In this document: positions 5,848 through 20,623 of the stretch, piece by piece
Layout of the letters: every line of letters begins with the position of its first letter
Numbering within the stretch: position 1 is the stretch's first letter
From: an uncultured delta proteobacterium
GTDB taxonomy: Bacteria; Myxococcota_A; Polyangia; Polyangiales; B10-G4
Direction of reading: 5' to 3'
NCBI GenBank assembly: GCA_963727445.1
Contig: CAVSGI010000010.1
Location: 288,001-352,000, forward strand
Length of the DNA: 64,000 nucleotides
Notes under the pieces: generated by a model
Seen by the model: the letters and a program-made list of their open reading frames with translations, nothing else
Databases searched by the model: none
Told to the model about the DNA's origin: nothing
Program-made: the position numbers and the translations under genes

Positions 5848-5861
5848 GCGTCGCGACGGCC

Positions 5862-7922
5862 TCAGCGGCGCCGCCGCCGCCGGAACGCGACCGCGAGCCC
5901 GACGAGGAGCACGGCGAGGAGCCCTCGCGTCGAATGACGTGGGGCGGCGATGCGGCAGCCGCAGCCGCCGTCGTCGTCGGCGCCGCCGGTGCCGGTGTCG
6001 GCGCCGGTGGCCCCGTCGAGGCCGCTGCCGCCGTCCGTGGTGCCGATGCTGACGCACGAGCCGGCGGAGCAGCGCGCGCCCGGGCCGCAGTCGACGCCGG
6101 CGCAGGGGTCGGGGACGCAGTCGCCGGCCCGGCACACCAGGCCTTCGCCGCACGTCACGCCCGTGCAGGCGTCGACGCACTCGCCGCCCTGGCACGCGAG
6201 GCCGGGGCCGCAGCTCACCGCGGCGCAGAGATCGGGGACGCACTCGCCGTCGACGCACGCCTGGGCGCGCGGGCAGACCACGCCGGTGCAGCCGTCCTCG
6301 CAGGTGCCGCCGGTGCACACCTCGGCCGCGGTGCAGGTCGCGGTCTCACAGCCGGCGTCGACGCACATGCCCTCGGTGGGCGAGTCCATGCGCGCGTCGC
6401 AGGCTTCGGTGTCGGCGCAGATGGACGCGGCCAGGTCAGCGCATGCGCACGAGGGCCCGCAGAGCGTGAGCGCGTCCGGGTCGGCGGCGACGCAGACCTG
6501 ATTCACCGGGCAGTCGACGCCGAGGCACGGGTCGAGACAGGCGCCGCTGAGGCATCGCTGGCCGCGCGGGCAGACCACGCCGTCGCAGGGCCCCACGCAC
6601 TCGCCCTCTCGGCACAGGGTGCCGTCGGGGCAGGGCGCGGTCCGGCCGGCGCAGGCGGTGTCGACGCAGTACGTCCCGTCGACGCAGGTGAAGCCCGGTC
6701 CGCAGCCTCCCTCGAAGCACTGCGACACGCACAGACCGCTGTCGGGTGCGCAGGCCGTGCCCGGCGGACAGTCCGCCATCGGCAGGCAGTCGAGGTCCTC
6801 CGTCGCGTCGCAGCGCTCGAAGGCGCCGGGGTGCCGCGCGGGGTCGGCGTCGTCGCAGTCCGTTCCACCGCACGCGACGTCGCGGAATCCGTCGCCGTCC
6901 GCGTCGGGACAGATGGCGGTGTTGTCCTCGTTGAGGCCGGCGACCGCGTCGAGCTCGGCGTCGAAGGACCAGAACTGGCACGCGTCGGTCGGGTTGCCGT
7001 TGTTGCCGCCGACGAGTGACGCGTAGCGGAAGGTGAGGCCGCAGGGGAGCGCGAAGACCTGCACGATGCCGTCGCGCATGGTGGCGTTCGACAGATCCGG
7101 CGCGAGCGCGTCGGCCTCGGTGGCGGGGGTCGGCTCGTCGGGGATCCAGCCCTGGAGGAACACGGTGGTGAGCAGGGCCGGGTTCCACTTGCGCGGATCG
7201 GGCGCGGAGGGATCCGCCACCTCGGTGGCCATCGGATCGTCGGAGAGCCAGACCGAGTACTCCCAGGACTCGCAGGGGAGGGGGCCGTGGTCGGTGAAGG
7301 GAAAGACGACGACGCGATTGCCTTCGCCGCCGAGGTCGAAGATCGCGCCGTTCGCCGGATCGAAGAAGCCCTGCTCGCCGTCACACACCCGGTCGCCGTC
7401 GGCGTGGCCGGCTGCGCCGAGGTAGAAGCGATCGATCTCGGCGTTGTAGCAATCGAGGCCGTTGAGCGCGTCCTCGAAGGCGTGGTTCCATCCGAAGACG
7501 TACTCGGGATCGGTCGCGAAGGCGCGCGGCGGCCCGCCCGCCGGTGCGCAGTATCCCGCCGGCGCGCCGCTGCCGTAGTAGAGCCACGCGGTGCCGCCCG
7601 CGTACGTTCGGCTCACGGCGCGGTTGATGTCGGCGGCGGAGGTCGATGCGCCGCGCACCAGGCGGCCGAAGGTGAGCGAGCGCGCGTCCATCCCATCGCT
7701 CGTTTGAAAGACGCCGAGGCGCCGGTCTGCCGGCATCAGCGCGTTGAAGCACTCGGTGCCCGAGGCGATGCACGCCCCACAGTTCGGATCGGTCGCCCCC
7801 GCGCTGCAGGAGGCACAGGTCCCGATGACGGCCTGCGCCGAGGCCGTGTGCTCCGAGGCGAGGAGGGCGGCCGAGCCGAGGACCAAGAGTGCGAAGGCGC
7901 GAAGGGCGAGGCGAAGGGGCAT
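5862..7922 (-). CDS. MYXO-CTERM-sorted Cys-rich surface protein with putative metal-binding repeat
   Basis: Signal peptide MPLRLALRAF...ASAQ; DADGDGF...DCDD...HPGA.E.CD motif; repeated 'CxGVxC' units; C-terminal GGCGC + TM helix + RRRRRR. Confidence 0.85.
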   Translation of the reverse strand: MPLRLALRAFALLVLGSAALLASEHTASAQAVIGTCASCSAGATDPNCGACIASGTECFNALMPADRRLGVFQTSDGMDARSLTFGRLVRGASTSAADINRAVSRTYAGGTAWLYYGSGAPAGYCAPAGGPPRAFATDPEYVFGWNHAFEDALNGLDCYNAEIDRFYLGAAGHADGDRVCDGEQGFFDPANGAIFDLGGEGNRVVVFPFTDHGPLPCESWEYSVWLSDDPMATEVADPSAPDPRKWNPALLTTVFLQGWIPDEPTPATEADALAPDLSNATMRDGIVQVFALPCGLTFRYASLVGGNNGNPTDACQFWSFDAELDAVAGLNEDNTAICPDADGDGFRDVACGGTDCDDADPARHPGAFERCDATEDLDCLPMADCPPGTACAPDSGLCVSQCFEGGCGPGFTCVDGTYCVDTACAGRTAPCPDGTLCREGECVGPCDGVVCPRGQRCLSGACLDPCLGVDCPVNQVCVAADPDALTLCGPSCACADLAASICADTEACDARMDSPTEGMCVDAGCETATCTAAEVCTGGTCEDGCTGVVCPRAQACVDGECVPDLCAAVSCGPGLACQGGECVDACTGVTCGEGLVCRAGDCVPDPCAGVDCGPGARCSAGSCVSIGTTDGGSGLDGATGADTGTGGADDDGGCGCRIAAPRHSTRGLLAVLLVGLAVAFRRRRRR

Positions 7923-7986
7923 GAGATCGAGACTGCACCCGTCGATCGCGCCCGTAAAGAGCGCTCGCGCCGAACCCCCGCTTCGA

Positions 7987-9363
7987 TCAGATGCCGGTAC
8001 AGAGCGCTTCGACGAGCTCGCTGTCGCCGCCGGTCGCCGGGCGCACGTAGGCGACGTGCAGTCCGTCGTCGAAATCCGCGCCCCAGAAGAGCGGGTAGGC
8101 GCTGTCGGCGAAGGTGAGCGTCGCGTCGGGGGTGTGGGGCATGGCGGTGCCGAAGGCGTGACGTTCGACGAAGACGGATCCGCTCGACGAGCGGAGCGAC
8201 ACGAAGCCGAGGCCCGCGGGGCGGTTCGCGAGCGCGGGCACGCGCGTGAGGCCCGAGGCAGGTGCGGCCGACCAACCCGAGCCGTCGCGCGCCGCGAAGA
8301 GAAGATCCGAGCTGCTCCGGTAGGCGATGGTCGCGCCTGCGCCGTCGGGGCTGGTGGCGAGGGCCACGGCGAGGCTCGCAGAGACGGGGTTGCGCGGCGC
8401 GCTGTCGACGGTGGTGCACGCCCAGGTGGACGACAGCGCCGAGGCATCGGCGGCGAGGATCGCGTCGGGTGCGGAGCCCTCGGGAACGGCGGAGACCGCG
8501 AGGGCGATCGTGCGTCCACCGGTCGACCCCCGCGCGGACATCTCCAGGCTGGCGCCGTTCGGCACCGTGCAGCCCGTCGGCGTCATCGACCACGCCGAGC
8601 TTCCCCGCCGCGCGCTCACGACGCTCGCTTCCATCGCGCCGGGGACGTCGTCGAAGAGGAGCTCCGGGACGTCGTCGGAGCCGATCAGCAGCGCGAGGTC
8701 CCGGGCGATCACGCCGTCGCGCACGTGCTCCACCGTCCCGAAGGTGCTGCCGTCGAGGGCGACGTAGTACACGCCGAAGGTCGTGGAGGAGCCTACCGTC
8801 TCGTAGCCGAGGAACGCGACGTGGATGACGCCGGTCGAGTCGACGGCGACCCGAACGGTCGGGTCGGCCAGGATCGGGTGCACGTCGCCCGGAACGGTCA
8901 CCGTATCCCAGGCCCCTGCCGCTCGGCGCGCGACCGCGATGGGGGCGTCGGTGCTCGCGCGCTGGGCGAAGGCGACCACCGGCTCGCCGCTCGCGTCGAG
9001 GGCCCAGTCTCCGCGGAGAATCGACGCGTCGCTCGTCAGGTCCACGTGATCGACCACGACGCAGGAAGGCATCATGGCGGCATCCGTGGTGCTCGCGTCG
9101 ATGGAGCCATCCGCGTCGGGCGACCCGTCGGCGCTCGCATCGGGCGCGACCCCGGTGTCCGCCGCCGCATCGAGGGCCGCGTCGGGCTCCGCGTCGGGCC
9201 CGCCGTCCGGCAGCGCGCTCGTATCGACGAAGGCGTCCGCCGCCGCGTCTTCGGTCCCGGCGTCCCCCTCGAGCATCCCCCCGTCGTCGACGACATCGCG
9301 CTCGTTTCCACAACCGATCGCCGAAGAGAGCAGGGCCAGAGACGTGAAGAGAAGCAGTCGCAT
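7987..9363 (-). CDS. Lipoprotein with acidic linker and probable beta-propeller domain
   Basis: MRLLLFTSLALLSSAIGC lipobox; D/A-rich linker; repeated 'ALDASGEPVVAF / AVDSTGVIHVAF' blades. Confidence 0.75.
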   Translation of the reverse strand: MRLLLFTSLALLSSAIGCGNERDVVDDGGMLEGDAGTEDAAADAFVDTSALPDGGPDAEPDAALDAAADTGVAPDASADGSPDADGSIDASTTDAAMMPSCVVVDHVDLTSDASILRGDWALDASGEPVVAFAQRASTDAPIAVARRAAGAWDTVTVPGDVHPILADPTVRVAVDSTGVIHVAFLGYETVGSSTTFGVYYVALDGSTFGTVEHVRDGVIARDLALLIGSDDVPELLFDDVPGAMEASVVSARRGSSAWSMTPTGCTVPNGASLEMSARGSTGGRTIALAVSAVPEGSAPDAILAADASALSSTWACTTVDSAPRNPVSASLAVALATSPDGAGATIAYRSSSDLLFAARDGSGWSAAPASGLTRVPALANRPAGLGFVSLRSSSGSVFVERHAFGTAMPHTPDATLTFADSAYPLFWGADFDDGLHVAYVRPATGGDSELVEALCTGI

Positions 9364-9529
9364 GCGCGCCCCCTCAGCAAGAGCTCTGCCACCCGCGCCC
9401 ACCCGCATTCACCGACGAATTCCCGCCCCCGCGCGGCAGGTGTGAACGCCGGTTCATCCTCGACGCGGTTGCGCCTGTGGCGAGGGATTCACTGTCGACG
9501 GATGTCGTGGGCGTCGCGCCAGCAACGAC

Positions 9530-9557
9530 AAACGGCCAGCCTTTCGGCTGACCGTTT
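9530..9557 (-). terminator. Hairpin terminator of the original tRNA-Gly locus
   Basis: Minus strand AAACGGTCAGCC-GAAA-GGCTGGCCGTTT, directly after the stranded tRNA 3' end. Confidence 0.7.
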
Positions 9558-9604
9558 CGGAGCGGGCGATGGGATTCGAACCGACGACATTCAGCTTGGG
9601 AAGC
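9558..9604 (-). repeat. att junction of element A: stranded 3' half of tRNA-Gly(CCC)
   Basis: 47-bp direct repeat of 14575-14621 (45/47 identical); spans anticodon loop to acceptor end. Confidence 0.92.
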
Positions 9605-9949
9605 CAACGACGGCACGAGCAATCTCGGGAGGTTGCGACCCAGCGTGGACGCAACGTGGACGATGTCGAGGGACTTGCGACCGCGGTGCTCGCGCTGGCG
9701 CAGACCGAGGTCGATCTTCCGGCCGATCTCGCCATCCGGCTGATCGACGCCGTGCTCGCGTCGGCGAGTGAGATGGTCAAGCTCGCCCTCGCGGCGAGAG
9801 AAGGCGGCCCACATGCGACCCGTCACCTGATCGACCTTGCAAGCCGCGTTCTCTCGAACGTCGACGACCGCAGGGAGCCGCAAGCAGCCGCGGTGGGAGA
9901 CGCAGCGACGTCGCCGATTGGATCAGAGGGAACCATCGAACCCGAGTAG
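9605..9949 (+). CDS. Detached C-terminal segment (114 aa) of integrase A, in frame with the att repeat
   Basis: ORF 9569-9949 begins GFEPTTFSLGS, identical to the last residues of integrase 13731-14624, and continues QRRHEQ...IEPE*. Confidence 0.7.
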   Translation, partial: QRRHEQSREVATQRGRNVDDVEGLATAVLALAQTEVDLPADLAIRLIDAVLASASEMVKLALAAREGGPHATRHLIDLASRVLSNVDDRREPQAAAVGDAATSPIGSEGTIEPE

Positions 9950-10055
9950 GGCGAAACACCAAACACCAGCCCCTCTGCGGCGGTGGCATCCACCGCAGAG
10001 GTCGTCGCACGAGGCGACGGCTGGAGCCCGCCGCGCACACGGAGGACGGCGGACA

Positions 10056-11807
10056 GTGGACATTGTAGGCCAACAAGAAGTCGACCGCGACCAGCTCATT
10101 CCGCGAGATAGAGATCACCTACGCGGGAGCGGGCTCACGGACGAGACCATCAGGAGAGCAGGTGTCTACTCCCTGCGGAGCCCGGCGGACGTTGCACAGG
10201 CGCTGGGTCGGTCATGGGTCCGAGGCGGTGGGATCGCTTTCCCCGTATTCCTTCCCGGGGAATCGAAGCCGGACCACATTCGCGTGCGTCCACACGAGCC
10301 GAAAATGCAGGGACGCGACGGGAAGGAACGGCCCCGTAGGTACGAAGGGCCACGGGGTCGGAGTCCCGTCTACTTCTCTCCGCGCGCGCGAGCGCAACAA
10401 TGGACCGACGAGATCCTTGTCGTTGAAGGTGAGAAGAAGGCCCTCCTCCTGGACCAGCTCGGGTACGCGGCGATCGGGTTGATCGGTTGCTGGCAGGCGC
10501 ACGACAAGCCTCACAAGGACAAGACCGGCAAGTGGCGGCTGCATCCCTGGATCCGCGCTTACGTGCCGGTGAGCGGTCACCAGATCGTGGTGGTGGCCGA
10601 CGCGGATGCGTCCGTGAACCCCGACATCGCCGCCGCGGTCCGCAAGCAGATCGTGATGTTCCGTACTGCGGGTGCGGAGGTTCGGGTCGTTCACGTGCCC
10701 GACAGCGGGAAGAAGAAGAACGGCATCGACGACTTCTTCGTTCGCGCGGGCGAGGAGGCGACGAGAGCCCTGTTGAAGCAGTCGCACGCCGAGGCAGGCG
10801 TGACGGCAGTCGATAGCTGGATCCAGCAGACAGTCATCGAGATCGGTGATACCGCACCCCGTGACGGCGAGCCCGTGGTCCTATACTTGGGGCGAAATAG
10901 GCAGACGCCTGTGTTCAGGTACTGGCCATTGCCAGGCGTGCTTTCCATGTTCGGGTTGGGGTCGGCACGCACGCTCCTGCTCGCGCGTATTGCACGCCTG
11001 GCCGATGATGATGGCGTCGCCCATGGCCGCAAGACTTGGTGGTACGACGACGCCACGGCGATGCTTGGAACGCGTGGCCTCGCGAGGGCCCTAGGACTAC
11101 GTTCACCTGGAGGGGTCCTCAAACATCTACGAGCCCTCGAACAGGCCGGGTACATCGATCGAGAGCATCAGTGCGGTGCGGCCCGGTTGCCCGACACGAT
11201 AACGATCCGGCCTTTCATCTGGCACTATTGGGGATGCGGGGGCAGGTGGTTTCGCGAGGACATCCGTCGAACTGATGTTGTCCCGGACCACGTGATCGAG
11301 CACATCATCGAGAACAAACTGGCCATCAAGGATGACTGGGCCTGCTACACGGTCGGTGGAAAGCGCTTCGAGAGACTCCATCACCTGACCAACGCGATCA
11401 GGGCCGACGAGGCATGGGCCCGCGCGACGGTGCACGAGGCGGTGGCAAGCGGTACCCTTGCGGACCAGCTTCCGATCCGCTGCCCTCCCGACCGGTACTG
11501 GAACGTCATGCACGTCCCGGAGGCGCTGGTCGCCCTGCGACTCGTCAGCCATCAGGCCGCTCTCGTGTACACGCGGATCGTCTGGCGAAACGGCAGCCTG
11601 GGACCCCGCCCGCTGGACCGCCACGATCTCGCCGAGTATGTCGGGCTCTCCTCGACCGATGGCTTGCGCCGCTACCTGCGTGAACTCTATCAGGTGGGTC
11701 TGCTCTCCAGGCTCCCCAACGGCCGCTTCGTCCCGCTGATGCACGAGTGGCTCCGTTCACCCGGTGCTCTGATTGACGGCAAGACAGTTCGTCGCTGGTC
11801 GGGTTGA
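10056..11807 (+). CDS. DUF3854/Toprim primase-like protein fused to two winged-HTH domains (putative Rep)
   Basis: GGAGG at 10041 then GTG 10056; motifs HLRGSGL, GIAFP, VVEGEKKA, VVADAD, KNGIDDF; wHTH-like TRGLARALGL..GGVLKHLRALEQAGYI and RHDLAEYVGL..DGLRRYLRELYQVGLL. Confidence 0.8.
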   Translation: MDIVGQQEVDRDQLIPRDRDHLRGSGLTDETIRRAGVYSLRSPADVAQALGRSWVRGGGIAFPVFLPGESKPDHIRVRPHEPKMQGRDGKERPRRYEGPRGRSPVYFSPRARAQQWTDEILVVEGEKKALLLDQLGYAAIGLIGCWQAHDKPHKDKTGKWRLHPWIRAYVPVSGHQIVVVADADASVNPDIAAAVRKQIVMFRTAGAEVRVVHVPDSGKKKNGIDDFFVRAGEEATRALLKQSHAEAGVTAVDSWIQQTVIEIGDTAPRDGEPVVLYLGRNRQTPVFRYWPLPGVLSMFGLGSARTLLLARIARLADDDGVAHGRKTWWYDDATAMLGTRGLARALGLRSPGGVLKHLRALEQAGYIDREHQCGAARLPDTITIRPFIWHYWGCGGRWFREDIRRTDVVPDHVIEHIIENKLAIKDDWACYTVGGKRFERLHHLTNAIRADEAWARATVHEAVASGTLADQLPIRCPPDRYWNVMHVPEALVALRLVSHQAALVYTRIVWRNGSLGPRPLDRHDLAEYVGLSSTDGLRRYLRELYQVGLLSRLPNGRFVPLMHEWLRSPGALIDGKTVRRWSG

Positions 11808-11867
11808 TGATGCCCACGTAGGCCGCGGCAGTAGCCCGGATGGCACCCACCGCTACGTGGTCGTCGT

Positions 11868-13256
11868 TCAGGGGACCATGGTACGAGCCGAAATCACGAC
11901 GTCGCCATCGCTGCGAACCGCGAGATCTGTGGCCCACTCGTCCGGTCCTGGCAAGTCACCGGGAGACCGAAACCACGTGAGGCCATTCAAGTCCACTTGA
12001 TACAGTACCGCTTGGTTGACGTCATCGTCATCGACGTGCTCGTAGCTTCTTCCGACCACGAGGATGGAGCCGGGCTCCGGTCGAAGTTGGATGCCATAGG
12101 CCGACTCGTGCCAACGTGCGGTGGTACCGAGAAGAGCGTAGCCCGTCATGAATCCGAACGAGGTGTCGAGCGCACCCGTTGGGCCGAGGGCCGCTACTAC
12201 AATCCGGCCGGCGTGGAGGCCCCGCTCCGTATCGAAGGCCGTCGCTGTTGCTGCGAGCAGCAACCTGCCCTCGCCGTCGAAGACACCGCCGTTCGCCCAG
12301 GAATGCCCGGTCTCGCCAGTCATGGCCGAACCGGGAAGAACGGCAAAGCCGGTTCCTGAGCCTCCGAACGCAAGATCCGGGGTGCAATCTTCTGCGCGAA
12401 TCTTGCCGACCCAGATCGAGCGAACGCTGGAAAGAAGATGAAGTTGACCGATGAGGTAGATGTCGTCAGTTGCCGGATCGATCGCGAGTCCGCGTACGAC
12501 CACGTTGCTGGTCAGGTTGGCAGCCCCACCTCCATCGCTCGGGAAGAGCTGCAACCACTCGAAGACGCCGTTCTGTCCGCACGACGGGTCTGGATTGCCA
12601 TTTTCATCGAGTCGGGCCACGACGGGTCTCCCATACGCCGTCAACAGGTCGAACCAGCCATGCCCGGCGACCACGATTCGCCCCAGTGAATCCAGGCCGA
12701 TGTCTGTGGCGCGCTCATCGCGAAGCGTCGGAGAGTCGATCAACTCGTACCCATCCACCGCCGCAGCGTCACCGAAGGACAGATCCCTCACTCCCGTGGC
12801 CGTGTAGCGAGCCACCGCCATGCGGCCCGGAGTAGAAACATAGCCGGCCGCAACGAGGTAGTCGGTGGCAGCCAGGTTCTGGTAGGCGACAGCGGCATAC
12901 TCTTCGTCGGCAGAGCTAAGAAAGTCCTCCACCACGCGACCAGAACCGGAGCCGAACGCGGGATCCTCAACGCCAGTAGACAGATAGCGCGCCAAGGCAA
13001 ACACTCGGCCCGACGCCCCGGTCCCAAAGCCCACCGTGGCGAGCCCGTCGGCGGGGTCCACCACGATGTCGTTGGCTTGCTCGCGAGGGCCACTGAAATC
13101 GGTGGAGCGCGTCCAGAGCCGATCGAAAACGAGGCCGGTGGAGAGCGCCGGCCGCGTGCACGCTCGGAAATCCGGTGATACGTTCGCAGCATGACTCGTT
13201 CGTTGTTCGCAGAGACAACGATGGTGTTCCTCCTGGTGGGCTGCGGCGTCTCTCAT
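11868..13256 (-). CDS. Delta-60 repeat (beta-propeller) protein, probably 5'-truncated or degraded
   Basis: Repeated 'LARYLSTGVEDPAFG', 'VARYTATGVRDLSFG', 'GPTGALDTSFG' units; no clear signal peptide; likely indel near 11890. Confidence 0.7.
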   Translation of the reverse strand: MRDAAAHQEEHHRCLCEQRTSHAANVSPDFRACTRPALSTGLVFDRLWTRSTDFSGPREQANDIVVDPADGLATVGFGTGASGRVFALARYLSTGVEDPAFGSGSGRVVEDFLSSADEEYAAVAYQNLAATDYLVAAGYVSTPGRMAVARYTATGVRDLSFGDAAAVDGYELIDSPTLRDERATDIGLDSLGRIVVAGHGWFDLLTAYGRPVVARLDENGNPDPSCGQNGVFEWLQLFPSDGGGAANLTSNVVVRGLAIDPATDDIYLIGQLHLLSSVRSIWVGKIRAEDCTPDLAFGGSGTGFAVLPGSAMTGETGHSWANGGVFDGEGRLLLAATATAFDTERGLHAGRIVVAALGPTGALDTSFGFMTGYALLGTTARWHESAYGIQLRPEPGSILVVGRSYEHVDDDDVNQAVLYQVDLNGLTWFRSPGDLPGPDEWATDLAVRSDGDVVISARTMVP

Positions 13257-13640
13257 CCCGCGGACGACTCCGGCTTCGACGCAGACGCGAATCCCCCGGA
13301 TGCCGGACTAGATGCCGACGGATCTGCGGATGTTTCCGCGTCCGACACTGATGCCGCCCGTGACGCCGATGCCTTCGATACCACCCCTCCGCTGATCACC
13401 ACGTGCGAGGGCCTGTATGCCTACGAGGCCCGCTGCATGGAGGAGTTCAGCTCCTGCACCGAGATCGAGCCCAGGGTGATCTCTCACGGCTGTGATGATG
13501 AGCTGACAGCGCTCTTTGCTTGCTTCGTGGAGGAGAGGTGCATTCCGTTCGCCTGCGAAAGCGTTCGCTTTCCTTTGCTGGACTGCCTAGACGCCTACTG
13601 TCGGAGGATGCCCACACCACCTGAGTGTCCCGATACGTAG
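13191..13640 (+). CDS. Small Cys-rich lipoprotein (cargo)
   Basis: LLVGC lipobox, D/A-rich linker, Cys-rich C-terminal domain. Confidence 0.65.
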   Translation: MTRSLFAETTMVFLLVGCGVSHPADDSGFDADANPPDAGLDADGSADVSASDTDAARDADAFDTTPPLITTCEGLYAYEARCMEEFSSCTEIEPRVISHGCDDELTALFACFVEERCIPFACESVRFPLLDCLDAYCRRMPTPPECPDT

Positions 13641-13699
13641 GCGTCGTCGCGGGGGATACGCGTGAAGAAGGTGATGACCGTGGTAGTTGGTCAACGGAG

Positions 13700-13800
13700 G
13701 GACCGAAAGTGAACGCGGGCTGGACCAAGAGTGAACGCGAGCCTCTCAGGCGGACCAAGAGTGAACACGGGGTCGAAAGTCTGGACCGAAAGTGATCACC
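13700..13800 (+). repeat. Four 18-bp iteron-like direct repeats GGACC(GAA/AAG)AGTGA(A/T)C...
   Basis: Copies start at 13700, 13722, 13752 and 13783, followed by an AT-richer tract with TGATCT-C-AGATCA. Confidence 0.75.
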
Positions 13801-14624
13801 CTTTAATCCCTGATCTCAGATCAATCCCAGAAGACGGAGAAATCCCAATACGCCGCTCGCTCTGCTCGAAGGGGATATCGGCGGCCGTCGACCCAACCGC
13901 GCGTCCCAGCGACGTTTCGGACGATTGGTTGCGACCGGTGGAAATCGATCAGCTCCTCGAAAGCGAGGCCATCCCGATCCACCTGCGCACCGTATACGCT
14001 GCCGCCATCGGACTCGCGCTCCGACTGAACGACCTCAAGAACGCCGAAGTCGCCCACGTCGACCTAGACTGCAAGGTACCGGGCCCCGGCATCCGCGTCT
14101 GGATCAGCAAGTCGAGGATCTACCACCGGGTTCCGATCATGCCTTGGTTGGTGCCCATTCTCAGGGAGCACATCGCACGGCTCCCGCCGGGCTCGCGCTG
14201 GCTCTTCGCAAACCGGAAAGGAGAGCGCTACTGCAAGGGCTACGATTTCAAGTGGGCCGAGAAGAAGGCGAAGCGGGGGGCCTACGACTCAGCGCTCACG
14301 ATCGCCGGGGTGGACCGCCGGATTCGGTTCCACGACCTCCGAGGCACCTGCGCAACGCACCTAGCCCTCGGTACCTGGGGGCGGGCGTGGAGCCACTTCG
14401 AGATCCAGAAGATGCTCGCGCATTCGGACGCGAAGGTCACCGAGCGCTACCTCAAGCGCGTCGTGGACCCGCTCGCCGACGCTGCCCGGAACACGCCCGG
14501 TGGGCCTCGGTTCGGCGTCCACGGCCGTCCACGCCGCGAAGGCGTGGAGGACGTGCAGCCCAACGAGATCAAAGCGGAGCGGGCGATCGGGTTCGAACCG
14601 ACGACATTCAGCTTGGGAAGCTGA
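13731..14624 (+). CDS. Tyrosine recombinase/integrase A (catalytic domain only; ends inside att/tRNA)
   Basis: Catalytic motifs LALR, FHDLR, MLAHS, TERY. Integrase-like sequence starts near 13926 (WLRPVEID). The stop TGA lies in the antisense tRNA anticodon stem. Start uncertain. Confidence 0.85.
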   Translation: MNASLSGGPRVNTGSKVWTESDHPLIPDLRSIPEDGEIPIRRSLCSKGISAAVDPTARPSDVSDDWLRPVEIDQLLESEAIPIHLRTVYAAAIGLALRLNDLKNAEVAHVDLDCKVPGPGIRVWISKSRIYHRVPIMPWLVPILREHIARLPPGSRWLFANRKGERYCKGYDFKWAEKKAKRGAYDSALTIAGVDRRIRFHDLRGTCATHLALGTWGRAWSHFEIQKMLAHSDAKVTERYLKRVVDPLADAARNTPGGPRFGVHGRPRREGVEDVQPNEIKAERAIGFEPTTFSLGS

Positions 14625-14650
14625 CACTCTACCAACTGAGTTACGCCCGC
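14578..14650 (-). tRNA. tRNA-Gly(CCC), intact, at the junction of elements A and B
   Basis: GCGGGCG/CGCCCGC acceptor; D arm ACTC/GAGT; anticodon arm TCAGC-TTCCCAA-GCTGA; T arm GTCGG-TTCGAAC-CCGAT; U73; CCA not fully encoded. Confidence 0.95.
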
Positions 14651-14662
14651 AAGTGACCGATG

Positions 14663-14691
14663 TTCTTAGCCATTGCCTCCTTCGGCGTCAA
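14663..14691 (-). promoter_or_regulatory. Element-encoded sigma70-like promoter for the reconstituted tRNA-Gly
   Basis: TTGACG-N17-TAAGAA, 12 nt upstream of the tRNA G1; embedded in the last codons of integrase B. Confidence 0.65.
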
Positions 14692-15879
14692 GCTCCCCCG
14701 AATCGTCCCCAGACCGATCCCCAGAGTCGGCCGGCGCGGAGCCGTTCTTGGCCCCTTGGACGAGCCGAAGAACCCTCCTGACGGCCGCCCGCTTCTCGTC
14801 GCCCTCGACGAAGGAGTAGTGGGCGGTCATCGCGTCGGTGACGTGGCCCATGAGGGCCTGAGTGACGATCGGGCTCGTCACCTGTCGCGTGAGGTTGTTG
14901 TTCGTTCGCCGGAGACCACTGCCGAGCGTCACGCGCCGATCGATCTTCGCAGCGGCCAGTACCTTCTTCCAAGGGTTACGAATCCCGCTCCCGTTCCGGA
15001 TGATCTTCCCCACCGTGGAAGGGAAGACCAGGCCGGAGGCGATGCGTGCGGCGTCGCCTTCTGACAGGAGACGTTCGCGGTGATCCTTCAGGATGTTGGC
15101 CAGGTAGGGCTCTATGGGTACGCCTCGAACCCTGATGCCCGTCTGACGCGTGGTCTTCAGCTTTGGCTCGCTATCTCCCTGGTACTGCGCCCGCCGGAAG
15201 GTAATCTCCGGTATTTGGAAGTCGACATCCTTCCATAGCAAGGCGCTCACGGCTCCGTAGCGCGCCCCTGTCAGCGCGATAGTCGCGAAGAAGGGATGCC
15301 ACTGAGGAGTGACCTCCTGTGCAGCGACCAGAACACGCGCCAACTCCTCAGCCGTGAGTCGATTCGAGTCCTCTTCTTCACTGGACGTCTCTTCGCGTAG
15401 ATAGCGAACCCGAGCGGCGGGGTTCACGGACAATCCGAACTCCACGGTCATGTCGGACATCATCGTCTTCACCACGCGAAGGTAGCCGTTCGCCGTGACC
15501 GGCTGATTGGGTCGGGTATCGCGCCACTTGCAGACATCGCGGTGCTTCACGGCATCCACGTAGAAGTCGCCCAGCCATCCGAGGTGGTCGAGCGCGTTGC
15601 CGTAAGTGTCCAGCGTCGATTTAGCGATCTCGCCGGCCTTTGATCTCAGCCACGATTCGGCGAAATCTGCGACTCTTTGCCGTGGCTTTGGTTCCGTCTC
15701 GTTGAGTAGCTCTTCCCTCAGCCTTGCTCGGATCGCCGCCGCGTCCGCGGCGCTTCGCGCCTGAACGATCCGAATCCCACCTCCTTTTGCTTTCCGGTTC
15801 TCGGGTCCATTGTCGTTGCCCGGACGCGGTAATCGCCTTTCCGGACTCTTCTTACACCTGGGTACTTCGTTGGTTTCAT
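14666..15879 (-). CDS. Tyrosine integrase B (apparent frameshift near 15770-15790)
   Basis: GGAGGT + ATG 15879 gives MKPTKYPGVRR...DPRTGKQKEV (arm-binding-like); the body continues in another frame with TGARYGAV, SGLRRT, LMGHVT, TAHY. Confidence 0.85.
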
Positions 15880-16156
15880 CCCAACCTCCAACCCCAGGCG
15901 CTTCGTGCCGGGGGCAATGGTCCCCCCGCCGAAGGAAGGAGTCGAGCGTCGATTTCAGGTACAGCCGCCGTCGCCGAGAGCCGGCGTCGGGGGTGAGGTG
16001 GCCGCGCGCCACCGCGGTGCGCAGGCCGGAGGCGGTCATTCGGCAGTAGGCAGCGGCCTCCTCGGTGACGAAGTAGGGCGACACTCTCCCACTTGGTCTT
16101 TCTCGATCGTCCTGCGCATGGCGATCCTCGATCGCACGGTCGTCTTCGTCGCGCAT
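15880..16156 (-). CDS. Excisionase-like HTH protein upstream of integrase B (3' end unclear)
   Basis: YFVTEEAAAYCRMTASGLRTAVARGHL...RRLYLKSTLDSFL, an HTH_17/Xis pattern; currently reads in frame into the integrase body. Confidence 0.7.
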
Positions 16157-16271
16157 CGCATCCAGATTTCTCCGGAGGCAGGAGCCACGAGTTCCGGTTG
16201 TCGTCGCTCACGAGGGAGCGCCATGGTGTCCATCTCATGGTGTTCAGCGGGCGGGTTGTTGTCTGTGTGGG

Positions 16272-17322
16272 CTACTCGAATGCCCACGTGCTCTCGTTCA
16301 GCTCTCGACCGTTGAGTAGCTGCACGCTCCAGCGGACGCGAGACCCTGAGCCCCGCCCGTTCTTGATCGCGACCTGCACCGACTCGCGGATGCACTTCGC
16401 GCCATCCGCTGGGTGCAGCAGCCCGCGAAGAACGGCATCGACGATCTTCCACCGCTGCATCCACGCCCAATGCGACTCGGACTGCATCTCAAGAAGCGCT
16501 GCGAGCAGCGGGGGCTTCAGAGCACCGACAATGACGTCGGGATCCCCACCAGTGTCCGAGGTGACCTCGACAGCAGCGCGCCAGATCACCCTGGCCAGCT
16601 CGATGCATCCGCGCAGCCACGCCGTGATGAGTGAAGCCGAGGTACTTCCGCGAGAAGCGGCAGAAGCTGCCGCCGATGTATCGGCGGTGCAGCTTGCGGT
16701 GCTCCACGGTCTCCAGAATCTCGCCCCAGAGGAGCAGATTGTAGACATCGGCCTTGAGCGCGGTCTCCAGGACGCCGCGGGGAAGGACGTGGGTCCGGCC
16801 CGAACTCGACAGCAGGTGCTCGGGATCGAAGATAGAAGGCGCCCTCGGCGTCAACGAGTGCGTCAACGCCGAGGGCTTCAAGCTGTCCGCGGTGCCCGGC
16901 CGGATAATCGATTTGGGTGTCCCGGTCCCATGACTCCTATGGGGCCTATGAGAGCGGGGACCTGCCGCTTGGGCAGAATGGCGGGGGTCAGTCGGCCCCC
17001 GCCCTCGGCCGTGCCTAGTGCGGAAAAGAGAAGTGATGTCTCGGAGTTCAGGGAACTCCAGGTCGACCTGTTCGAGCGCCGACCAAAGTTTGAGATTGCC
17101 CGCCGCGGGTTCGTACGCGCGGAGCCAGGACTCTAGGACCTGCATGCGGTTGGTGGTGTCGGGGGCACTCGCCCCAAGCCTCCCGAGCAGGTTCCACACC
17201 TTCGCGGCCCGGGAGTCGGCAGCGCCCCTCGAAGTACTCGAAGCCCAAGAAGGTGAACGGGTCCCGGATGCCCCCAACGCTCCGCTTGTACTCGGAGTGA
17301 CCTCGGCGGTTGCGCAGTACAC
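16272..17322 (-). pseudogene. Fragmented hypothetical coding region of element B
   Basis: Overlapping minus-strand ORFs 16489-17322 and 16272-16748 have protein-like stretches but no recognisable family. Confidence 0.3.
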
Positions 17323-18994
17323 CCCCGCGTGCTGGGCGGACCCTCAGCCCGAGGGATGTCCTTCGAAGCGGCAACGTCGATGTGTATCTCAACGTCGATA
17401 CGATCGGCCTATATGAAAGATCCTGACACGCTACGAACAAGCGCTGCTCGAAGTGCTCGCGGTTTGGAACGGGCGTTCCCACGCAGACATCAACCTAGAG
17501 TATCGCGGGAGAACCAGTGACACGAAGAAGGGTCCCAACACGCTCGTCGTCGACTTCATCGAAAGCTTCTTCTGCGACACGCGAGCATGCCCTCAGATAA
17601 TGGTCGGCGCTCAAGGCGTCTCCAACTGCTCCGGTGAAGGAGCCTTTGTCCAAGTAGTCCTCCGCGATTGCGTGGCGCCGCCGGGCTGAAGTGCGCCACC
17701 CGGTGCGTGCAGCGAGAACAACCCGTACGGGCCGTGGATGCCTGATACCGCACTCCGCACTTGGTCGACGGACCGCTCCACCGGCATATCTTTCCAGGGG
17801 ATCCGACCCACGAACTGGGTCATGCACTGGCCGGCGTCGGGCACACCACCTGCCCGGGCACGATGGAGGCGACCGCATGGGGTGCCGGGCAGCCCGACTG
17901 CATCCTGTACTCCGAGGATCAGTTGGCCATTCGTGGTGCCATCGGCTTCACATGGGACACCCCGAAGATATCCGAATCATCCGACGGACTAAACTGGGTC
18001 TCAAAGGTCAACGCCAGTGCCAATCCCTGGGCCGGCTCGCATCCCAGTTCGACCACTCTCTATGGCGCTTTTCCACCAGCGGTTGCCGGTCTGCCTTCGT
18101 GGTCTAATGAGCGAGTTCAAACCACCACGCTACTTGTCGACTACGCCGAGCGGTTCCGAAGCGTGGGAGACGTAGGGGGATAGTTTCCGCTGCCCTCGAC
18201 GACCGGCGACTTCAACGGCTCGACGCTGGCGGTTAGCTGGTTTGGCGCAGTACGCGGACGCGACCGCATCCTATTGCGATCCGGGACCGTTCCCAAGCGG
18301 CATGAGTGGCTGCCACCTGTTTCTTGCGTACGCCGTCGGCAGCGCGACGCCCACGGTTGGCTCGTACACACCAACTACCGGTGTAGGGACTGGAGAGGCG
18401 CCCAGAGTCCAGTACAATCCGGCGTTCGATGAGTTTGTCGCATTCTTCATAGACGCCGATACAGGCCAACTGAGATGGATGCGGGCACCCGCGATCAGTG
18501 GAGCGTGGGGACCTGACGCCCCGGTGACCGGCGCTGTCGGCGGAATGATGTTGCGGCACCTCGGCGGGGTTGTGTTTGATCCAACGACCGGAGACGGTCT
18601 GTTGACTGCCACACGAGACGACGGGACACCCCGCAATGCTATCTGGCAGATCGGACTCAATCGGACACCGTCGGGAGCCTACAACGCGTTTGCCGTGGGA
18701 CCCGCCGGAACGATCGTTGGGGAGCATCAGACGTTCAGCGAGTTCGGGATGGCGCGCGCCTCGGATGGCCGCGTGCTCCTAGCCTTCAGCGCGACGATCC
18801 CGATGGCTCCGCCATTTGCGTGGCGTCGCCGCTTGATGGTCTCCGAGAAGACCTCCATCAACCCAGGAGTACCGTTCCCGACCCCGTCGGAGCCGGGTAG
18901 TCCGCCCGTAATCAGTGAGGTGGGAGTCGATCTCACCTACGATGCGTTTGAAGACCGCTGGATCCTTGGTGTGGTGAAGGCAGAATGGGAGTAG
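17270..18994 (+). pseudogene. Disrupted secreted metzincin (matrixin-like) protease with C-terminal beta-rich domain
   Basis: THELGHALAGVGH followed by TM (Met-turn-like) near 17806-17870; in-frame TGA at 17687; frameshift near 17804; break near 18183. Start approximate. Confidence 0.6.
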
Positions 18995-18996
18995 CC

Positions 18997-19458
18997 ATGA
19001 CTAGACTCATTCCTCTGATCGGCGTTGCGGCCGTGCTTGGTGGCTGTTCACTCTCCCACGAAGATGAGACCACGCCCTCGTCTTCGGAGTCTGTTGCGAC
19101 TCCCACGCCAGCTCCTTCCCCTCCTCCTCCATCCTTCCATGCCCCAGACGGGTGGAACTGTGCCATCTCGACCCACGCGGCCTGGCGGAACCAAACTAGC
19201 TGGGCACGTACGATCGTTGTTGAGTCCTCCGAGCAGGTTTCGGCCGAAGGAGAGTACCTGCGCGAGTACGCCATAGTGCCGTCGGTTGAATCGCCCACGC
19301 GAGTCGGTCGCGTATGGGCGCTTCCTGAGCTGGGCCAACCCGACGGCGCGTTTGTGGCACTCCTCGATTCTGGCGATCAAGTCTTCATGTGGGCACCTCT
19401 CAATGATCGGGTTGTCCATTTCGCTGACGAGAGAGCGACCCTCGATGACCTCTTGTAA
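18997..19458 (+). CDS. Lipoprotein, hypothetical
   Basis: MTRLIPLIGVAAVLGGC lipobox; S/P-rich linker. Confidence 0.65.
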   Translation: MTRLIPLIGVAAVLGGCSLSHEDETTPSSSESVATPTPAPSPPPPSFHAPDGWNCAISTHAAWRNQTSWARTIVVESSEQVSAEGEYLREYAIVPSVESPTRVGRVWALPELGQPDGAFVALLDSGDQVFMWAPLNDRVVHFADERATLDDLL

Positions 19459-19747
19459 CTCCTTCTTCTGGGTTCTGGTCCTCGCTCTCGTATGCGTGAG
19501 CTGCTCTAGCAGCAGAACTCCCTCCGATGGAGGTGTCGACGCATCGCTGGATGCCGCTGACAGCGGTGGGGAAGATGCTCTTGACGGCGCTTCGCATGAC
19601 GCCGCGCTCGACGGCGCATCGTCCGATTCTGACGCCACTGACACCATGTGTCGCGGGATGGAGGAGCCGTGCACCGTTGACGAGGACTGCTGCTCCTACG
19701 CGTGCTCGGTCCGCCTCCGCCTTTGCGGAATGCCAATCGACCCTTGA
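19445..19747 (+). CDS. Small lipoprotein with C-terminal six-Cys (C-C-CC-C-C) domain
   Basis: Hydrophobic leader ending LVCVSC; D/A/G linker; CRGMEEPCTVDEDCCSYACSVRLRLC. Confidence 0.65.
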   Translation: MTSCNSFFWVLVLALVCVSCSSSRTPSDGGVDASLDAADSGGEDALDGASHDAALDGASSDSDATDTMCRGMEEPCTVDEDCCSYACSVRLRLCGMPIDP

Positions 19748-19874
19748 TGGGGTCAGTGCGGGATCCCCAGAGCGATCCCCAGACCCGGTGGGACACCACG
19801 AAGCGGCACGAAGCGCCTAGGGACGCGATTGCTTCGTGATTACCGAATCTGCGAATCGTCTCGTGGTGGCTTGA

Positions 19875-19918
19875 TCAGCTTGGGAAGCTGACACTCTACC
19901 AACTGAGTTACGCCCGCA
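19875..19918 (-). repeat. att junction of element B: stranded 5' half of tRNA-Gly(CCC)
   Basis: GCGGGCGTAACTCAGTTGGTAGAGTGTCAGCTTCCCAAGCTGA, then non-tRNA sequence. Confidence 0.92.
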
Positions 19919-19929
19919 GAGGAGCGGGA

Positions 19930-19957
19930 TAGTTAGCTACGGCGGGCGGGGCGTCAA
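19930..19957 (-). promoter_or_regulatory. Original host tRNA-Gly promoter
   Basis: TTGACG-N16-TAACTA, 12 nt upstream of the stranded 5' half; same TTGAC...GCTAA style as the tRNA-Leu promoter at ~32060-32087. Confidence 0.65.
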
Positions 19958-19963
19958 GTGGGC

Positions 19964-20623
19964 TCAAGGGGTGAGGGGCGGTGCGGGAGGCGCGCGGGTC
20001 ACGACGAGTTGCAGGTCGAGTTGGGCCTGTCCTTGGGGGACGGCGGGCGGGACTGGGGCGTCGATCAGGGTGGCTTCGATGCAGTCGACGGCGTCGGCGT
20101 AGGCGAGGAGGGAGTCGGGGAGCGCGTCGGTGGGGACGGCAGGGATGATGTCCCAGGCGACGGTGACGGCAGTGACGGCAGGGCGGTCGTCGATGACGAG
20201 GCGCAGGAGCAGGTGGCCCTCGACGTCGGCGGAGAGCGGAGCGACACAGCGCCGGAGCTCGGCCTGGGTGGCGTCGAAGAGGACGCGCGGCGAGTCGGCG
20301 GCGTGAGCGCGGCTCAGCTCGAGCGCGACGACCGTGCGCGTCTCGACAGCGACTTCGTCGTTCCACGATTCGGACGATGGCGGTGCTTCGGGGTTCGTCG
20401 GCACGAACGCGCTCGGCGCGTGCTGCGTCCCGGTCGCGAACGCGCGGTTGCGACGCACCCCGGGGAGAGTGTCGGCCGCGGTCGCGCGCTCGGCGCTTGC
20501 CCCGTCGGCCGCGGCCGCGCGCTCGGCGCTTGCCCCGGGGAAAGTCGTGGGCCGTGTGGAGGCGAGGCCCGAGCCGCAGGCAGCGAGGATCAGGGCGAAG
20601 AGGAGGAGCAGGGCGCGGCGCAT
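19964..20623 (-). CDS. Lipoprotein, hypothetical
   Basis: MRRALLLLFALILAAC lipobox. Confidence 0.6.
   Translation of the reverse strand: MRRALLLLFALILAACGSGLASTRPTTFPGASAERAAAADGASAERATAADTLPGVRRNRAFATGTQHAPSAFVPTNPEAPPSSESWNDEVAVETRTVVALELSRAHAADSPRVLFDATQAELRRCVAPLSADVEGHLLLRLVIDDRPAVTAVTVAWDIIPAVPTDALPDSLLAYADAVDCIEATLIDAPVPPAVPQGQAQLDLQLVVTRAPPAPPLTP

What the first reader, a model, noticed from the sequence alone, without database searches (positions are those of the whole stretch)
9530..19957. One tRNA-Gly pulled apart by two opposite-polarity integrative elements; the intact tRNA appears built entirely from element DNA
Seen: three tRNA-Gly(CCC) pieces on the minus strand - a 5' half with promoter (19875-19957), a full gene (14578-14650) and a 3' half with terminator (9530-9604). 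The 47-bp repeats bounding element A cover the 3' half; the 44-bp repeats bounding element B cover the 5' half; they overlap only at the anticodon arm TCAGC-TTCCCAA-GCTGA. Two dissimilar integrases converge on the central tRNA. Known: most tRNA-targeting elements restore the 3' end; myxophage Mx9 is reported to use the 5' region of a tRNA-Gly gene. Inference: both recombine in the same anticodon loop with opposite duplicated halves, so the working tRNA has its 5' half and promoter from B and its 3' half from A, and either element could excise independently. I do not know of a described case of this back-to-back arrangement.
Basis: partly seen in the sequence, partly recalled or inferred. Interest (0 to 1): 0.9.

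Follow-up and report, generated by a model that had tools for sequence, protein, structure and literature searches.

The report
tRNA-Gly gene flanked by two islands
The genome's only glycine-CCC tRNA gene has a small mobile-DNA island on each side, one replacing its back half and one its promoter and front half, a rare mix of two known ways of inserting.

Summary
The genome's only tRNA-Gly(CCC) gene (14576-14650, minus strand) lies between two low-GC islets. Islet A (9605-14575) is bounded by a 47-nt repeat of the tRNA's 3' part. Islet B (14651-19874) is bounded by an exact 44-nt repeat of its 5' part. The two repeats overlap only in the anticodon arm.

A belongs to an integrase family that always faces tRNA 3' ends, with its reading frame running into the tRNA, as reported for Mx8. 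B belongs to a family that sits next to tRNA-Gly genes. B carries two arm-site pairs, its own tRNA-type promoter and tRNA nt 1-43. This is the "reversed", 5'-fragment layout already catalogued (159 of 3,919 Islander islands).

Two points do not hold. Neither islet looks autonomously mobile: A's integrase lacks its N-terminal third to half, and B's has a frame change after codon 34. The 5' mode is not new.

New here:
- The two-sided layout recurs in 3 of 20 related loci.
- B's integrase family has switched polarity at least three times, once between integrases 79% identical, by swapping the module after the arm sites.

Earlier notes of this scan record 5'-type islands on other DNA, none two-sided.

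The parts
9515..9557 (-). Hairpin after the displaced 3' fragment; probably the tRNA gene's original terminator
   Evidence: RNAfold of 9515-9560 gives a 12-bp stem and -23.6 kcal/mol. The T tract is weak, and the consensus scan does not call it.
9558..9604 (-). Displaced 3' fragment of tRNA-Gly(CCC), nt ~30-75; the outer junction of islet A
   Evidence: 45/47 identical to 14575-14621. It differs at gene positions 60 and 63, which gives a C51:C63 mismatch in the T stem.
9605..14575 (.). Islet A, 4,971 bp, 3'-type, decayed
   Evidence: Low GC, bounded by the 47-nt repeat, with a truncated integrase at the end next to the tRNA.
9605..9949 (+). Open frame that would continue IntA's frame in the excised, circular form (attP inside int)
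   Evidence: Same frame as IntA across the repeat, by coordinate arithmetic. Strong 3-base periodicity at 9600-9899. This is an inference; the chance of 115 open codons at this GC is about 0.06 by my estimate.
9837..11807 (+). Primase-like protein with a DUF3854 (Toprim-like) domain and a winged-helix domain
   Evidence: PF12965 at 1.6e-16 and PF01726 at 2.9e-8. PHROG 'DNA primase' families at 2e-5 and 9e-5.
11868..13256 (-). Cargo ORF with a DUF5122 beta-propeller repeat
   Evidence: PF17164 at 6.6e-11.
13191..13640 (+). Small Asp-rich ORF with a lipoprotein-like N-terminus
   Evidence: Translation. No family match. The lipoprotein reading is by eye only.
13700..13772 (.). Three 21-nt direct repeats just upstream of and inside the start of the IntA ORF
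   Evidence: Family D6. Function unknown.
13731..14624 (+). IntA: catalytic domain only of a tyrosine integrase; the ORF reads through the complement of the tRNA 3' part and stops in the anticodon stem
   Evidence: PF00589 at residues 66-242. It matches phrog_1 positions 257-445 only. Homologue ORFs are 350-760 aa, and their first ~95-315 residues have no match in 12500-15000.
14576..14650 (-). The one complete tRNA-Gly(CCC) gene, a chimera of the two islets
   Evidence: ARAGORN. Cloverleaf energy -26.4 kcal/mol.
14608..14621 (-). 14-nt overlap of the two repeats, in the anticodon arm; the presumed common crossover region
   Evidence: Coordinates of repeat families D1 and D2.
14651..19874 (.). 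Islet B, 5,224 bp, 5'-type ('reversed')
   Evidence: Low GC, bounded by the 44-nt exact repeat, with an integrase plus arm sites at the end next to the tRNA.
14663..14691 (-). Element-borne promoter of the working tRNA: TTGACG at 14691-14686 and TAAGAA at 14668-14663. The int stop codon lies inside the second hexamer.
   Evidence: Coordinates. The same layout appears in all co-directional relatives. It resembles native tRNA-Gly(CCC) promoters of the order.
14706..14725 (-). Pair of TCTGGGGA motifs 12 nt apart; candidate arm-type sites next to int
   Evidence: 4 of the 7 matches in the 64-kb window lie at the two ends of B; 2.3 expected, and 0 of 100 shuffles reach 7. TGGGGAC pairs sit at the same place in relatives.
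14666..16156 (-). 496-aa ORF that is an in-frame fusion of an upstream HTH_17 (excisionase/Uoi-like) gene with IntB from about residue 35 onward
   Evidence: PF00589 at residues 266-448 and HTH_17 at 31-77. Three-frame reading against the G067 homologue.
15718..15879 (-). True N-terminus of IntB (arm-binding-type motif) in another frame; the frame change lies near 15783-15772, at a short G run
   Evidence: In 5 homologues the HTH gene and int are likewise in different frames, but there int is unbroken.
19764..19783 (-). Second pair of TCTGGGGA motifs, on the distal arm of B
   Evidence: and family D12.
19875..19918 (-). Displaced 5' part of the tRNA (nt 1-43 plus one upstream base); the outer junction of B
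   Evidence: 44/44 identical to 14608-14651.
19930..19957 (-). Native-type promoter now stranded in front of the 5' fragment: TTGACG at 19957-19952 and TAACTA at 19935-19930
   Evidence: Coordinates. Matches of 80-84% to the promoter regions of tRNA-Gly(CCC) in four other families. Alignment by eye.

Best explanation
Two unrelated tyrosine-integrase elements have each inserted into the anticodon loop of the single tRNA-Gly(CCC) gene, from opposite sides.

Islet A is of the usual 3' type. Its attP carried a copy of tRNA nt ~30-75 inside the 3' end of its integrase gene. Integration joined that copy to the resident 5' part. It pushed the old 3' part and its terminator 5 kb downstream.

Islet B is of the rarer 5' type. 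Its attP carried two arm-site pairs, a tRNA-type promoter and tRNA nt 1-43. Integration joined these to the resident 3' part. It pushed the old promoter and 5' part 5.2 kb upstream.

The result is the same whichever came first. The only complete gene runs from B's promoter and 5' part into A's 3' part. The original gene survives as two stranded fragments.

What is shown: the repeats, the composition change, the integrases, the arm motifs and the behaviour of both integrase families in relatives. What is inferred: crossover inside the 7-nt loop, activity of B's promoter, and past mobility. Today both islets look immobile or nearly so, because A's integrase is truncated and B's has a frame change. 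The chimeric gene is therefore probably fixed.
For: Anatomy.

IntA family. It was found in 80 of 301 genomes of the order. In 22 of 30 fetched loci a tRNA (Arg, Asn or Gly-CCC) lies next to int, and all 22 are convergent. Several ORFs run into the tRNA complement and end ...FSLGS*, as here.

IntB family. It was found in 60 of 301 genomes. 24 of 30 loci have a tRNA-Gly beside int, 1 has tRNA-Val and 5 have none. Convergent members leave 3' fragments that start at tRNA nt 27-32 (L107, L109-L112, L116, L119). Co-directional members leave 5' fragments that end at nt 38-43: own, G206:C5, G036:C10 and G067:C9.

Conserved co-directional layout. All co-directional members share the order arm repeats, TTGAC promoter, tRNA 5' part, then a distal arm with inverted GTCCC motifs. 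B has two TCTGGGGA pairs, one about 100 nt to each side of the core.

Single occupancy exists for each type.

The assembly holds 140 unbroken ORFs of 1,000 aa or more. It is therefore not indel-ridden.
Against: - No empty site, attP circle or junction read could be obtained. The only same-genus genome is too diverged and fragmented. The one sequencing run that holds the DNA has depth of about 2 and shows no joints.
- No expression data exist, so use of B's promoter is unproven. The consensus scan does not call it.
- A second copy of the outer B junction exists at contig C11:4957-5158. It comprises a native-type promoter, the 5' part and 100 nt of B-like arm, and is 91% identical over 203 nt. 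Its partner end is not in the assembly. The history of the 5' side may therefore be more complex than one insertion.
- The displaced 3' fragment would rebuild a tRNA with a T-stem mismatch. Either it has decayed or it was never the exact original.
Confidence: 0.82

Rival explanations
1. One composite 10.4-kb element carries a complete tRNA-Gly gene of its own in its middle. It inserted once into the host gene's anticodon loop and split it into the two outer fragments.
For: The two outer fragments share only the 14-nt core. That is what a single insertion with a 14-nt core would leave. No single-occupancy state of this very locus could be found.
Against: - Each half has its own integrase, placed and oriented as in elements of its family that occur alone.
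- The arm motifs of B lie at 14706-14725 and 19764-19783. They therefore bracket B alone, not the 10.4 kb.
- No relative among about 300 genomes of the order or 79 metagenome loci showed IntA and IntB together. In those calls IntA was searched only in the fetched loci.
- An exact 28-nt probe of the B-promoter/tRNA joint found nothing in the metagenome contigs.
Confidence: 0.04
2. Assembly artefact: population variants carrying A or B at the same tRNA were stitched together through the short repeats.
For: The genome is a 27-contig draft with 85.6% completeness. The repeats are 44-47 nt. The only run found gives no bridging contigs.
Against: - The locus lies inside a 1.58-Mb contig.
- The same two-sided layout occurs in two other assemblies, one on a 1.78-Mb contig.
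- Stitching would have to place three fragments in exactly the order and orientation that recombination predicts.
Confidence: 0.04
3. The stranded promoter and 5' fragment at 19875-19960 are not this locus's original. They are the leftover of an earlier B-like element or of a duplicated junction, so the 5' side is the remnant of a tandem array.
For: A 91% identical twin of this junction, promoter included, sits on contig C11 beside IS110 and IS91 transposases. Tandem 5'-type arrays exist in G067:C9.
Against: - No integrase 3' end or TGGGGA arm pair lies upstream of 19960.
- GC returns to host level there.
- The promoter matches the native tRNA-Gly(CCC) promoters of other families.
Confidence: 0.07

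Closest known systems
tRNA-gene (tDNA) genomic islands as defined by Islander (Hudson, Lau & Williams 2015, PMC4383910; I read passages of it)
   Same: A full tDNA plus a displaced fragment in direct orientation, an integrase inside, an anticodon-centred site, and a size above 2 kb. Tandem arrays at one tDNA are catalogued (125 cases).
   Different: Here one island of each polarity shares the same tDNA, so no part of the working gene is original. The passages I read describe same-tDNA arrays but do not mention mixed polarity.
Islands with a 5' tDNA fragment, or 'reversed target gene orientation' (159 of 3,919 Islander islands; Zhao & Williams 2002 J Bacteriol 184:859, of which I saw only the title and how PMC6563490 cites it)
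   Same: Islet B supplies the 5' part and must bring its own promoter. The host promoter and 5' part are stranded.
   Different: B's integrase family is mostly of the 3' type. B belongs to one of at least three separate switches to the 5' type.
Myxophage Mx9 attB in the 5' region of a tRNA-Gly gene (Julien 2003; paper not held; the content is recalled, and only the title was seen)
   Same: As recalled: a myxobacterial host, tRNA-Gly as target, use of the 5' side.
   Different: No Mx9 sequence was available, so relatedness is untested. IntB found no Myxococcus phage among its 30 phage records.
Myxophage Mx8 IntP/attP (attP inside int; the uoi gene overlaps the int start)
   Same: The IntA ORF crosses the att core, so integration changes its C-terminus. 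This is the behaviour named in the Tojo 1996 title and in the Islander text. The IntB family has an HTH_17 gene overlapping the int start, like uoi/int in the Mx8 record.
   Different: Only remote similarity. IntA against Mx8 Int: 27% over 128 aa, pairwise E 2e-5. IntB against Mx8 Int: 22% over 212 aa, E 0.003. IntA found no hit in the phage-wide search. Mx8 uses tRNA-Asp (recalled).

Membership tests
Islander-type tDNA island (both islets) | Full tDNA and a cognate end fragment, same orientation, 5' fragment upstream or 3' fragment downstream | tested here: met
   The 5' fragment (nt 1-43) lies upstream and the 3' fragment (nt 30-75) downstream, both on the tRNA strand.
Islander-type tDNA island (both islets) | A tyrosine integrase gene inside the island | tested here: met
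   PF00589 in both. However, IntA is truncated and IntB has a frame change.
Islander-type tDNA island (both islets) | Length 2-200 kb | tested here: met
   4,971 and 5,224 bp.
5'-fragment ('reversed') tDNA island (islet B) | The element supplies the 5' part of the gene and a promoter | tested here: met
   The sequence shows TTGACG-N17-TAAGAA between the int stop and the tRNA start. The layout is conserved in co-directional relatives. Promoter activity was not tested.
5'-fragment ('reversed') tDNA island (islet B) | Demonstrated integration or excision | not testable with these tools
   No joints in the one available run and no close relative.
Mx8-type integrase (attP within int) | The int reading frame extends across the att core | tested here: met
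   The IntA ORF ends at 14624, inside the anticodon stem. The frame stays open at 9605-9949 across the other copy.
Mx8-type integrase (attP within int) | Close sequence relationship to Mx8 Int | tested here: not met
   IntA has no hit at E 1e-5 in a phage-wide tblastn; that collection holds Mx8. IntB's 30 phage records, at 22-27% identity in the rows shown, include no Myxococcus phage. Pairwise similarity is only 22-27% identity.
Mx9-type integrase | Homology to Mx9 Int and use of the same attB | not testable with these tools
   The paper is not held and no Mx9 sequence was met in any search.
Tyrosine recombinase catalytic fold | Conserved R...HxxR...H/W...Y residues | tested here: inconclusive
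   By eye in the translations. IntA has GLR, HDLRG and H...ERY. IntB has TGAR, LRRT (with Ser, or Asn in G067, in place of the first His) and GH...HY. Alignment A1 shows R152, R269, H291 and Y300 invariant in 13 family members. No structure or assay was done.

The most novel reading that the evidence does not exclude
In this tRNA-Gly-targeting integrase family, the DNA between the arm sites and the core behaves as an exchangeable cassette. It is either 'spacer + complement of the tRNA 3' part' or 'promoter + tRNA 5' part'. The near-palindromic glycine anticodon arm lets the same integrase use the site in either polarity. In Gly-GCC the 17-bp arm is symmetric except for its central base.

Polarity therefore flips often: at least three times in 32 sequences, and once between integrases 79% identical. 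Mirror-image islets can stack on both sides of one gene. A tRNA gene can thus be replaced piece by piece, from promoter to 3' end, by mobile DNA. That would be a route of horizontal tRNA-gene replacement that leaves the locus looking intact.
Probability: 0.35. Interest if true: 0.6.

Novelty: new variant of a known kind. Interest (0 to 1): 0.45.

Why it matters
Mobile elements that enter tRNA genes are usually said to preserve the host gene by replacing only its tail. Here, and in two related genomes, islands of both polarities occupy one gene. The cell's only tRNA-Gly(CCC) is thus transcribed from an element's promoter and consists of element DNA on both sides of the anticodon.

Three consequences follow:
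- tRNA sequence, promoter strength and regulation can be imported horizontally without any visible gene gain.
- Tools that find islands should expect mixed-polarity arrays.
- Loss of either element's recombination ability locks in the chimera.

The family-level result offers a concrete system for testing what sets integration polarity. The same integrase and arm sites are followed by either a 3'-part module or a promoter-plus-5'-part module. It could also supply integrases that can be aimed at either side of a tRNA gene.

Tried and rejected
- Empty or singly occupied site in the one same-genus genome (G001). The flanking genes are 69-76% identical and lie on separate small contigs, with no tRNA-Gly beside them. 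Uninformative.
- Sequencing runs. One soil run has a 0.06 share of words. When laid, it gave depth of about 2, 151-nt pieces identical to parts of A and B, and no joints or bridging records. It says nothing about excision.
- Genome-contig scan with IntB alone. It returned only two irrelevant Oscillibacter loci at 27-28% identity.
- Exact 28-nt probe of the B-promoter/tRNA joint in metagenome contigs. It gave 0 matches.
- Two-sided layouts in metagenome loci. In 9 loci with at least 3 kb on both sides, no fragment of any kind was found, not even the expected own-side one. The test has little power.
- A 13-sequence alignment was too diverse for the search for related loci. A 4-sequence alignment worked.
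- Cargo of B. There were no Pfam or PHROG matches for 16 candidate ORFs. Only int is shared with other B-type elements by tblastx. The GC-phase plot leaves 17400-19100 unclear.
- A programmed frameshift in IntB was considered. I saw no canonical slippery heptamer at 15783-15772 (reading). I treat it as a mutation or, less likely, an assembly error.
- Papers not held: Williams 2002, Julien 2003 and Zhao & Williams 2002. What I say about their content is recalled or taken from how others cite them.
- The S. meliloti hot-spot paper and Phage_Finder gave nothing on 5'-type or two-sided islands.


Full report
**1. Observation**

ARAGORN finds two tRNAs in the window. One is tRNA-Gly(CCC) at 14576-14650 on the minus strand. 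It is the only Gly-CCC gene among the 68 tRNAs of the 27-contig, 9.47-Mb assembly.

Two direct repeats involve this gene:
- 14608-14651 equals 19875-19918 at 44/44. This is tRNA nt 1-43 plus one upstream base.
- 14575-14621 equals 9558-9604 at 45/47. This is tRNA nt ~30-75.

The two repeats overlap by 14 nt, in the anticodon arm.

Read along the tRNA strand, the order is as follows:
- a promoter-like TTGACG...TAACTA and the 5' fragment (19957-19875);
- 5,224 bp of islet B;
- a second TTGACG...TAAGAA and the full gene;
- 4,971 bp of islet A;
- the 3' fragment and a strong hairpin.

GC drops from about 0.72 to 0.60-0.66 between 9600 and 19870. The consensus scan called neither promoter nor the terminator. 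Those labels rest on conservation and folding.

**2. Islet A**

The ORF 13731-14624 (+) has a PF00589 domain. It reads through the complement of the tRNA 3' part and stops in the anticodon stem.

Its family was found in 80 of 301 genomes of the order. In 22 of the 30 fetched loci a tRNA (Arg, Asn or Gly-CCC) lies beside int, and in all 22 the two genes converge. Several ORFs end in tRNA-encoded residues like ...FSLGS*. This is the usual 3'-type layout, with attP inside int. The Islander paper names that feature for Mx8.

The frame stays open for 115 codons beyond the other repeat copy (9605-9949), with strong codon periodicity. The excised form would therefore encode a longer protein. This is an inference.

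IntA is incomplete. Homologue ORFs are 350-760 aa. Their first ~95-315 residues match nothing in 12500-15000. IntA covers only positions 257-445 of the PHROG integrase profile, where IntB covers 143-460.

The rest of A encodes:
- a primase-like DUF3854/winged-helix protein;
- a beta-propeller-repeat protein;
- a small lipoprotein-like ORF.

A is a decayed islet.

**3. Islet B**

The 496-aa ORF 14666-16156 (-) carries HTH_17 and PF00589 domains. Comparison with the closest homologue (G067:C9, 53-54% identity) shows that it is a fusion. The real int start lies in another frame at 15879 and has a GDYRVRA-type arm-binding motif. That frame runs for 34 homologous codons. Near 15783-15772, at a short G run, homology continues in the frame of the upstream HTH gene.

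In five homologues the HTH gene and int also overlap in different frames, but int is unbroken. The Mx8 record shows the same uoi/int overlap. The assembly holds 140 unbroken ORFs of at least 1,000 aa. The frame change is therefore more likely real than an assembly error, but I cannot prove this.

Between the int stop and the tRNA start lie TTGACG (14691-14686) and TAAGAA (14668-14663). The int stop codon sits inside the latter.

Two pairs of TCTGGGGA, each pair 12 nt apart, lie about 100 nt to either side of the core, at 14706-14725 and 19764-19783. These are 4 of the 7 matches in the whole window, against 2.3 expected. They are candidate arm-type sites that bracket B alone.

**4. B's integrase family in relatives**

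The family was found in 60 of 301 genomes. Of 30 fetched loci, 24 have a tRNA-Gly (CCC or GCC) beside int, 1 has tRNA-Val and 5 have none. Most are convergent. With 10 kb of flank, these leave 3' fragments that start at tRNA nt 27-32 (L107, L109-L112, L116, L119).

A minority are co-directional with the tRNA and leave 5' fragments:
- G206:C5 is a clean 5.9-kb single element with a 44-nt repeat (tRNA nt 1-40 plus 4 upstream bases).
- G036:C10 has a 31.6-kb element with a 62-nt repeat.
- G067:C9 has an array in which a second int, promoter and 5' part lie 85 kb upstream.

All co-directional members share the same order of parts: a TGGGGA(C/T) pair, a TTGAC promoter, the tRNA 5' part, then a distal arm with inverted GTCCC motifs.

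In 79 metagenome loci found with a 4-sequence profile, 41 had a tRNA within 450 nt after int. Of these, 37 were convergent and 4 co-directional; the best hit (57% identity) was co-directional at Gly-CCC. Of the 36 loci without a full tRNA there, 16 had a match of at least 28 nt to the complement of a tRNA-Gly 3' part. None had a co-directional 5' part.

**5. Polarity switches**

I built a maximum-likelihood tree of 32 family members. One row shorter than 280 aa was dropped. The tree needs 4 changes of the 5'-type label, and well-supported branches force at least 3.

The integrases of G088:C387 (convergent) and G036:C10 (co-directional) are 79% identical over 350 aa. Their DNA aligns up to the second TGGGGACC and then diverges. 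One continues with a spacer and the complement of the tRNA-Gly(GCC) 3' part. The other continues with a promoter and the 5' part. Seen from int, the two cores differ only at the central base of the anticodon loop.

I propose, as inference, that the near-palindromic glycine anticodon arm makes such switches easy.

**6. Two-sided occupancy elsewhere**

I examined 20 loci with an IntB-family int beside a tRNA-Gly and at least about 10 kb of context. Three are two-sided.
- This window.
- G036:C10. It has the 31.6-kb 5'-type element plus two integrase-less 3' islets of 3.0 and 2.5 kb that begin with the same 100 nt.
- G020:C23. It has a 3.6-kb integrase-less 5' islet with a decayed fragment (nt 6-39) and arm-like motifs, plus an 8.6-kb 3'-type element with an IntB-family int.

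Nine metagenome loci showed no fragments at all, so that sample is uninformative.

**7. Rivals**

A single composite element is unlikely. Each half matches elements that occur alone. B's arm pairs bracket only B.

Misassembly cannot be excluded by reads. It is made unlikely by the 1.58-Mb contig and by the recurrence in other assemblies.

One complication is a 91% identical twin of the outer B junction at C11:4957-5158. It comprises a native-type promoter, the 5' part and 100 nt of arm. It lies beside IS110 and IS91 transposases and next to 5 kb of low-GC DNA that runs off the contig. This suggests either a second, incompletely assembled Gly-CCC locus occupied by a B-like element, or a duplicated junction.

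The stranded promoter at 19930-19957 looks native. Its region matches the tRNA-Gly(CCC) upstream regions of four other families at 80-84%. In addition, 17 of 19 such loci show TTGAC at the same distance.

**8. State of the gene**

Joining the two stranded fragments in silico gives a tRNA that differs from the working one at positions 60 and 63. It has a C51:C63 mismatch in the T stem. Its cloverleaf energy is -24.5 kcal/mol against -26.4 for the working gene.

Together with the truncated IntA, this suggests that A is old and the original 3' part has begun to decay. B's perfect repeat and single frame change suggest a younger insertion. The order of arrival cannot be read from the structure.

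**9. Known or new**

Islander lists 3,760 islands with a 3' fragment, 159 with a 5' fragment, and 125 tandem arrays. Krupovic et al. [quoted passage not shown] Earlier notes of this scan record eight 5'-type islands on other DNA, none two-sided. They also call this genome a myxobacterium, which I did not check.

Each islet is thus an ordinary member of a known kind. My searches did not find the mixed-polarity pair around one gene in print, nor repeated polarity switching inside one integrase family. The key older papers were not readable, and the island databases were not available. I rate the finding a new variant of a known kind, of moderate interest.

Noticed in passing
own genome contig C11:4957-5158 (locus L021): A second stranded copy of 'native-type promoter + tRNA-Gly(CCC) nt 1-43 + 100 nt of B-like distal arm', 91% identical to window 19776-19977. 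It lies between 5 kb of low-GC DNA that runs off the contig start and an IS110-family transposase (5225-6319). An IS91-type transposase and a further integrase lie nearby. No matching full tRNA or integrase is in the assembly.
   Followed up: partly
L033 (G088:C387) versus L037 (G036:C10): The two integrases are 79% identical over 350 aa but have opposite polarity at tRNA-Gly(GCC). DNA homology stops right after the second TGGGGACC repeat. There a '3'-part' module is replaced by a 'promoter + 5'-part' module.
   Followed up: partly
G036:C10, about 186,888-192,437 (L055 11888-17438): Two integrase-less islets of 3.0 and 2.5 kb lie in tandem downstream of tRNA-Gly(GCC). Each is bounded by the 44-nt 3' fragment, and both begin with the same 100 nt. 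They may be satellites moved by the neighbouring element's integrase.
   Followed up: no
G067:C9 9155-95471 (L052-L054, L130-L132): Tandem 5'-type arrangement. The full tRNA-Gly(CCC) has int beside it, and 85 kb upstream lies a second int followed by a promoter and the 5' part only. A third int with a 5' part only is on G067:C109.
   Followed up: partly
window 13700-13772: Three 21-nt direct repeats (spacing 22 and 30 nt) at the start of the truncated IntA ORF. They could be iterons, operators or arm sites.
   Followed up: no
window 20408-20545: A GC-rich repeat region: a tandem pair of 33-nt units (20471-20536) overlapped by 40-nt and 22-nt two-copy repeats (D8, D9, D17). It lies 0.5 kb upstream of the stranded promoter, in a stretch without a clear coding frame.
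   Followed up: no
own genome contig C13:351321-352924: A second IntB-family integrase (34% identity), convergent with a tRNA-Gly(GCC) gene. The genome thus holds both polarities of the family.
   Followed up: no
window 5862-9408 (-): Two long minus-strand ORFs with host-like GC3 (5862-8519 and 7987-9408) overlap by about 530 nt in different frames. Neither was identified: 7987-9408 had no Pfam match and 5862-8519 was not scanned. They may be one gene with a frame change or two overlapping genes.
   Followed up: no
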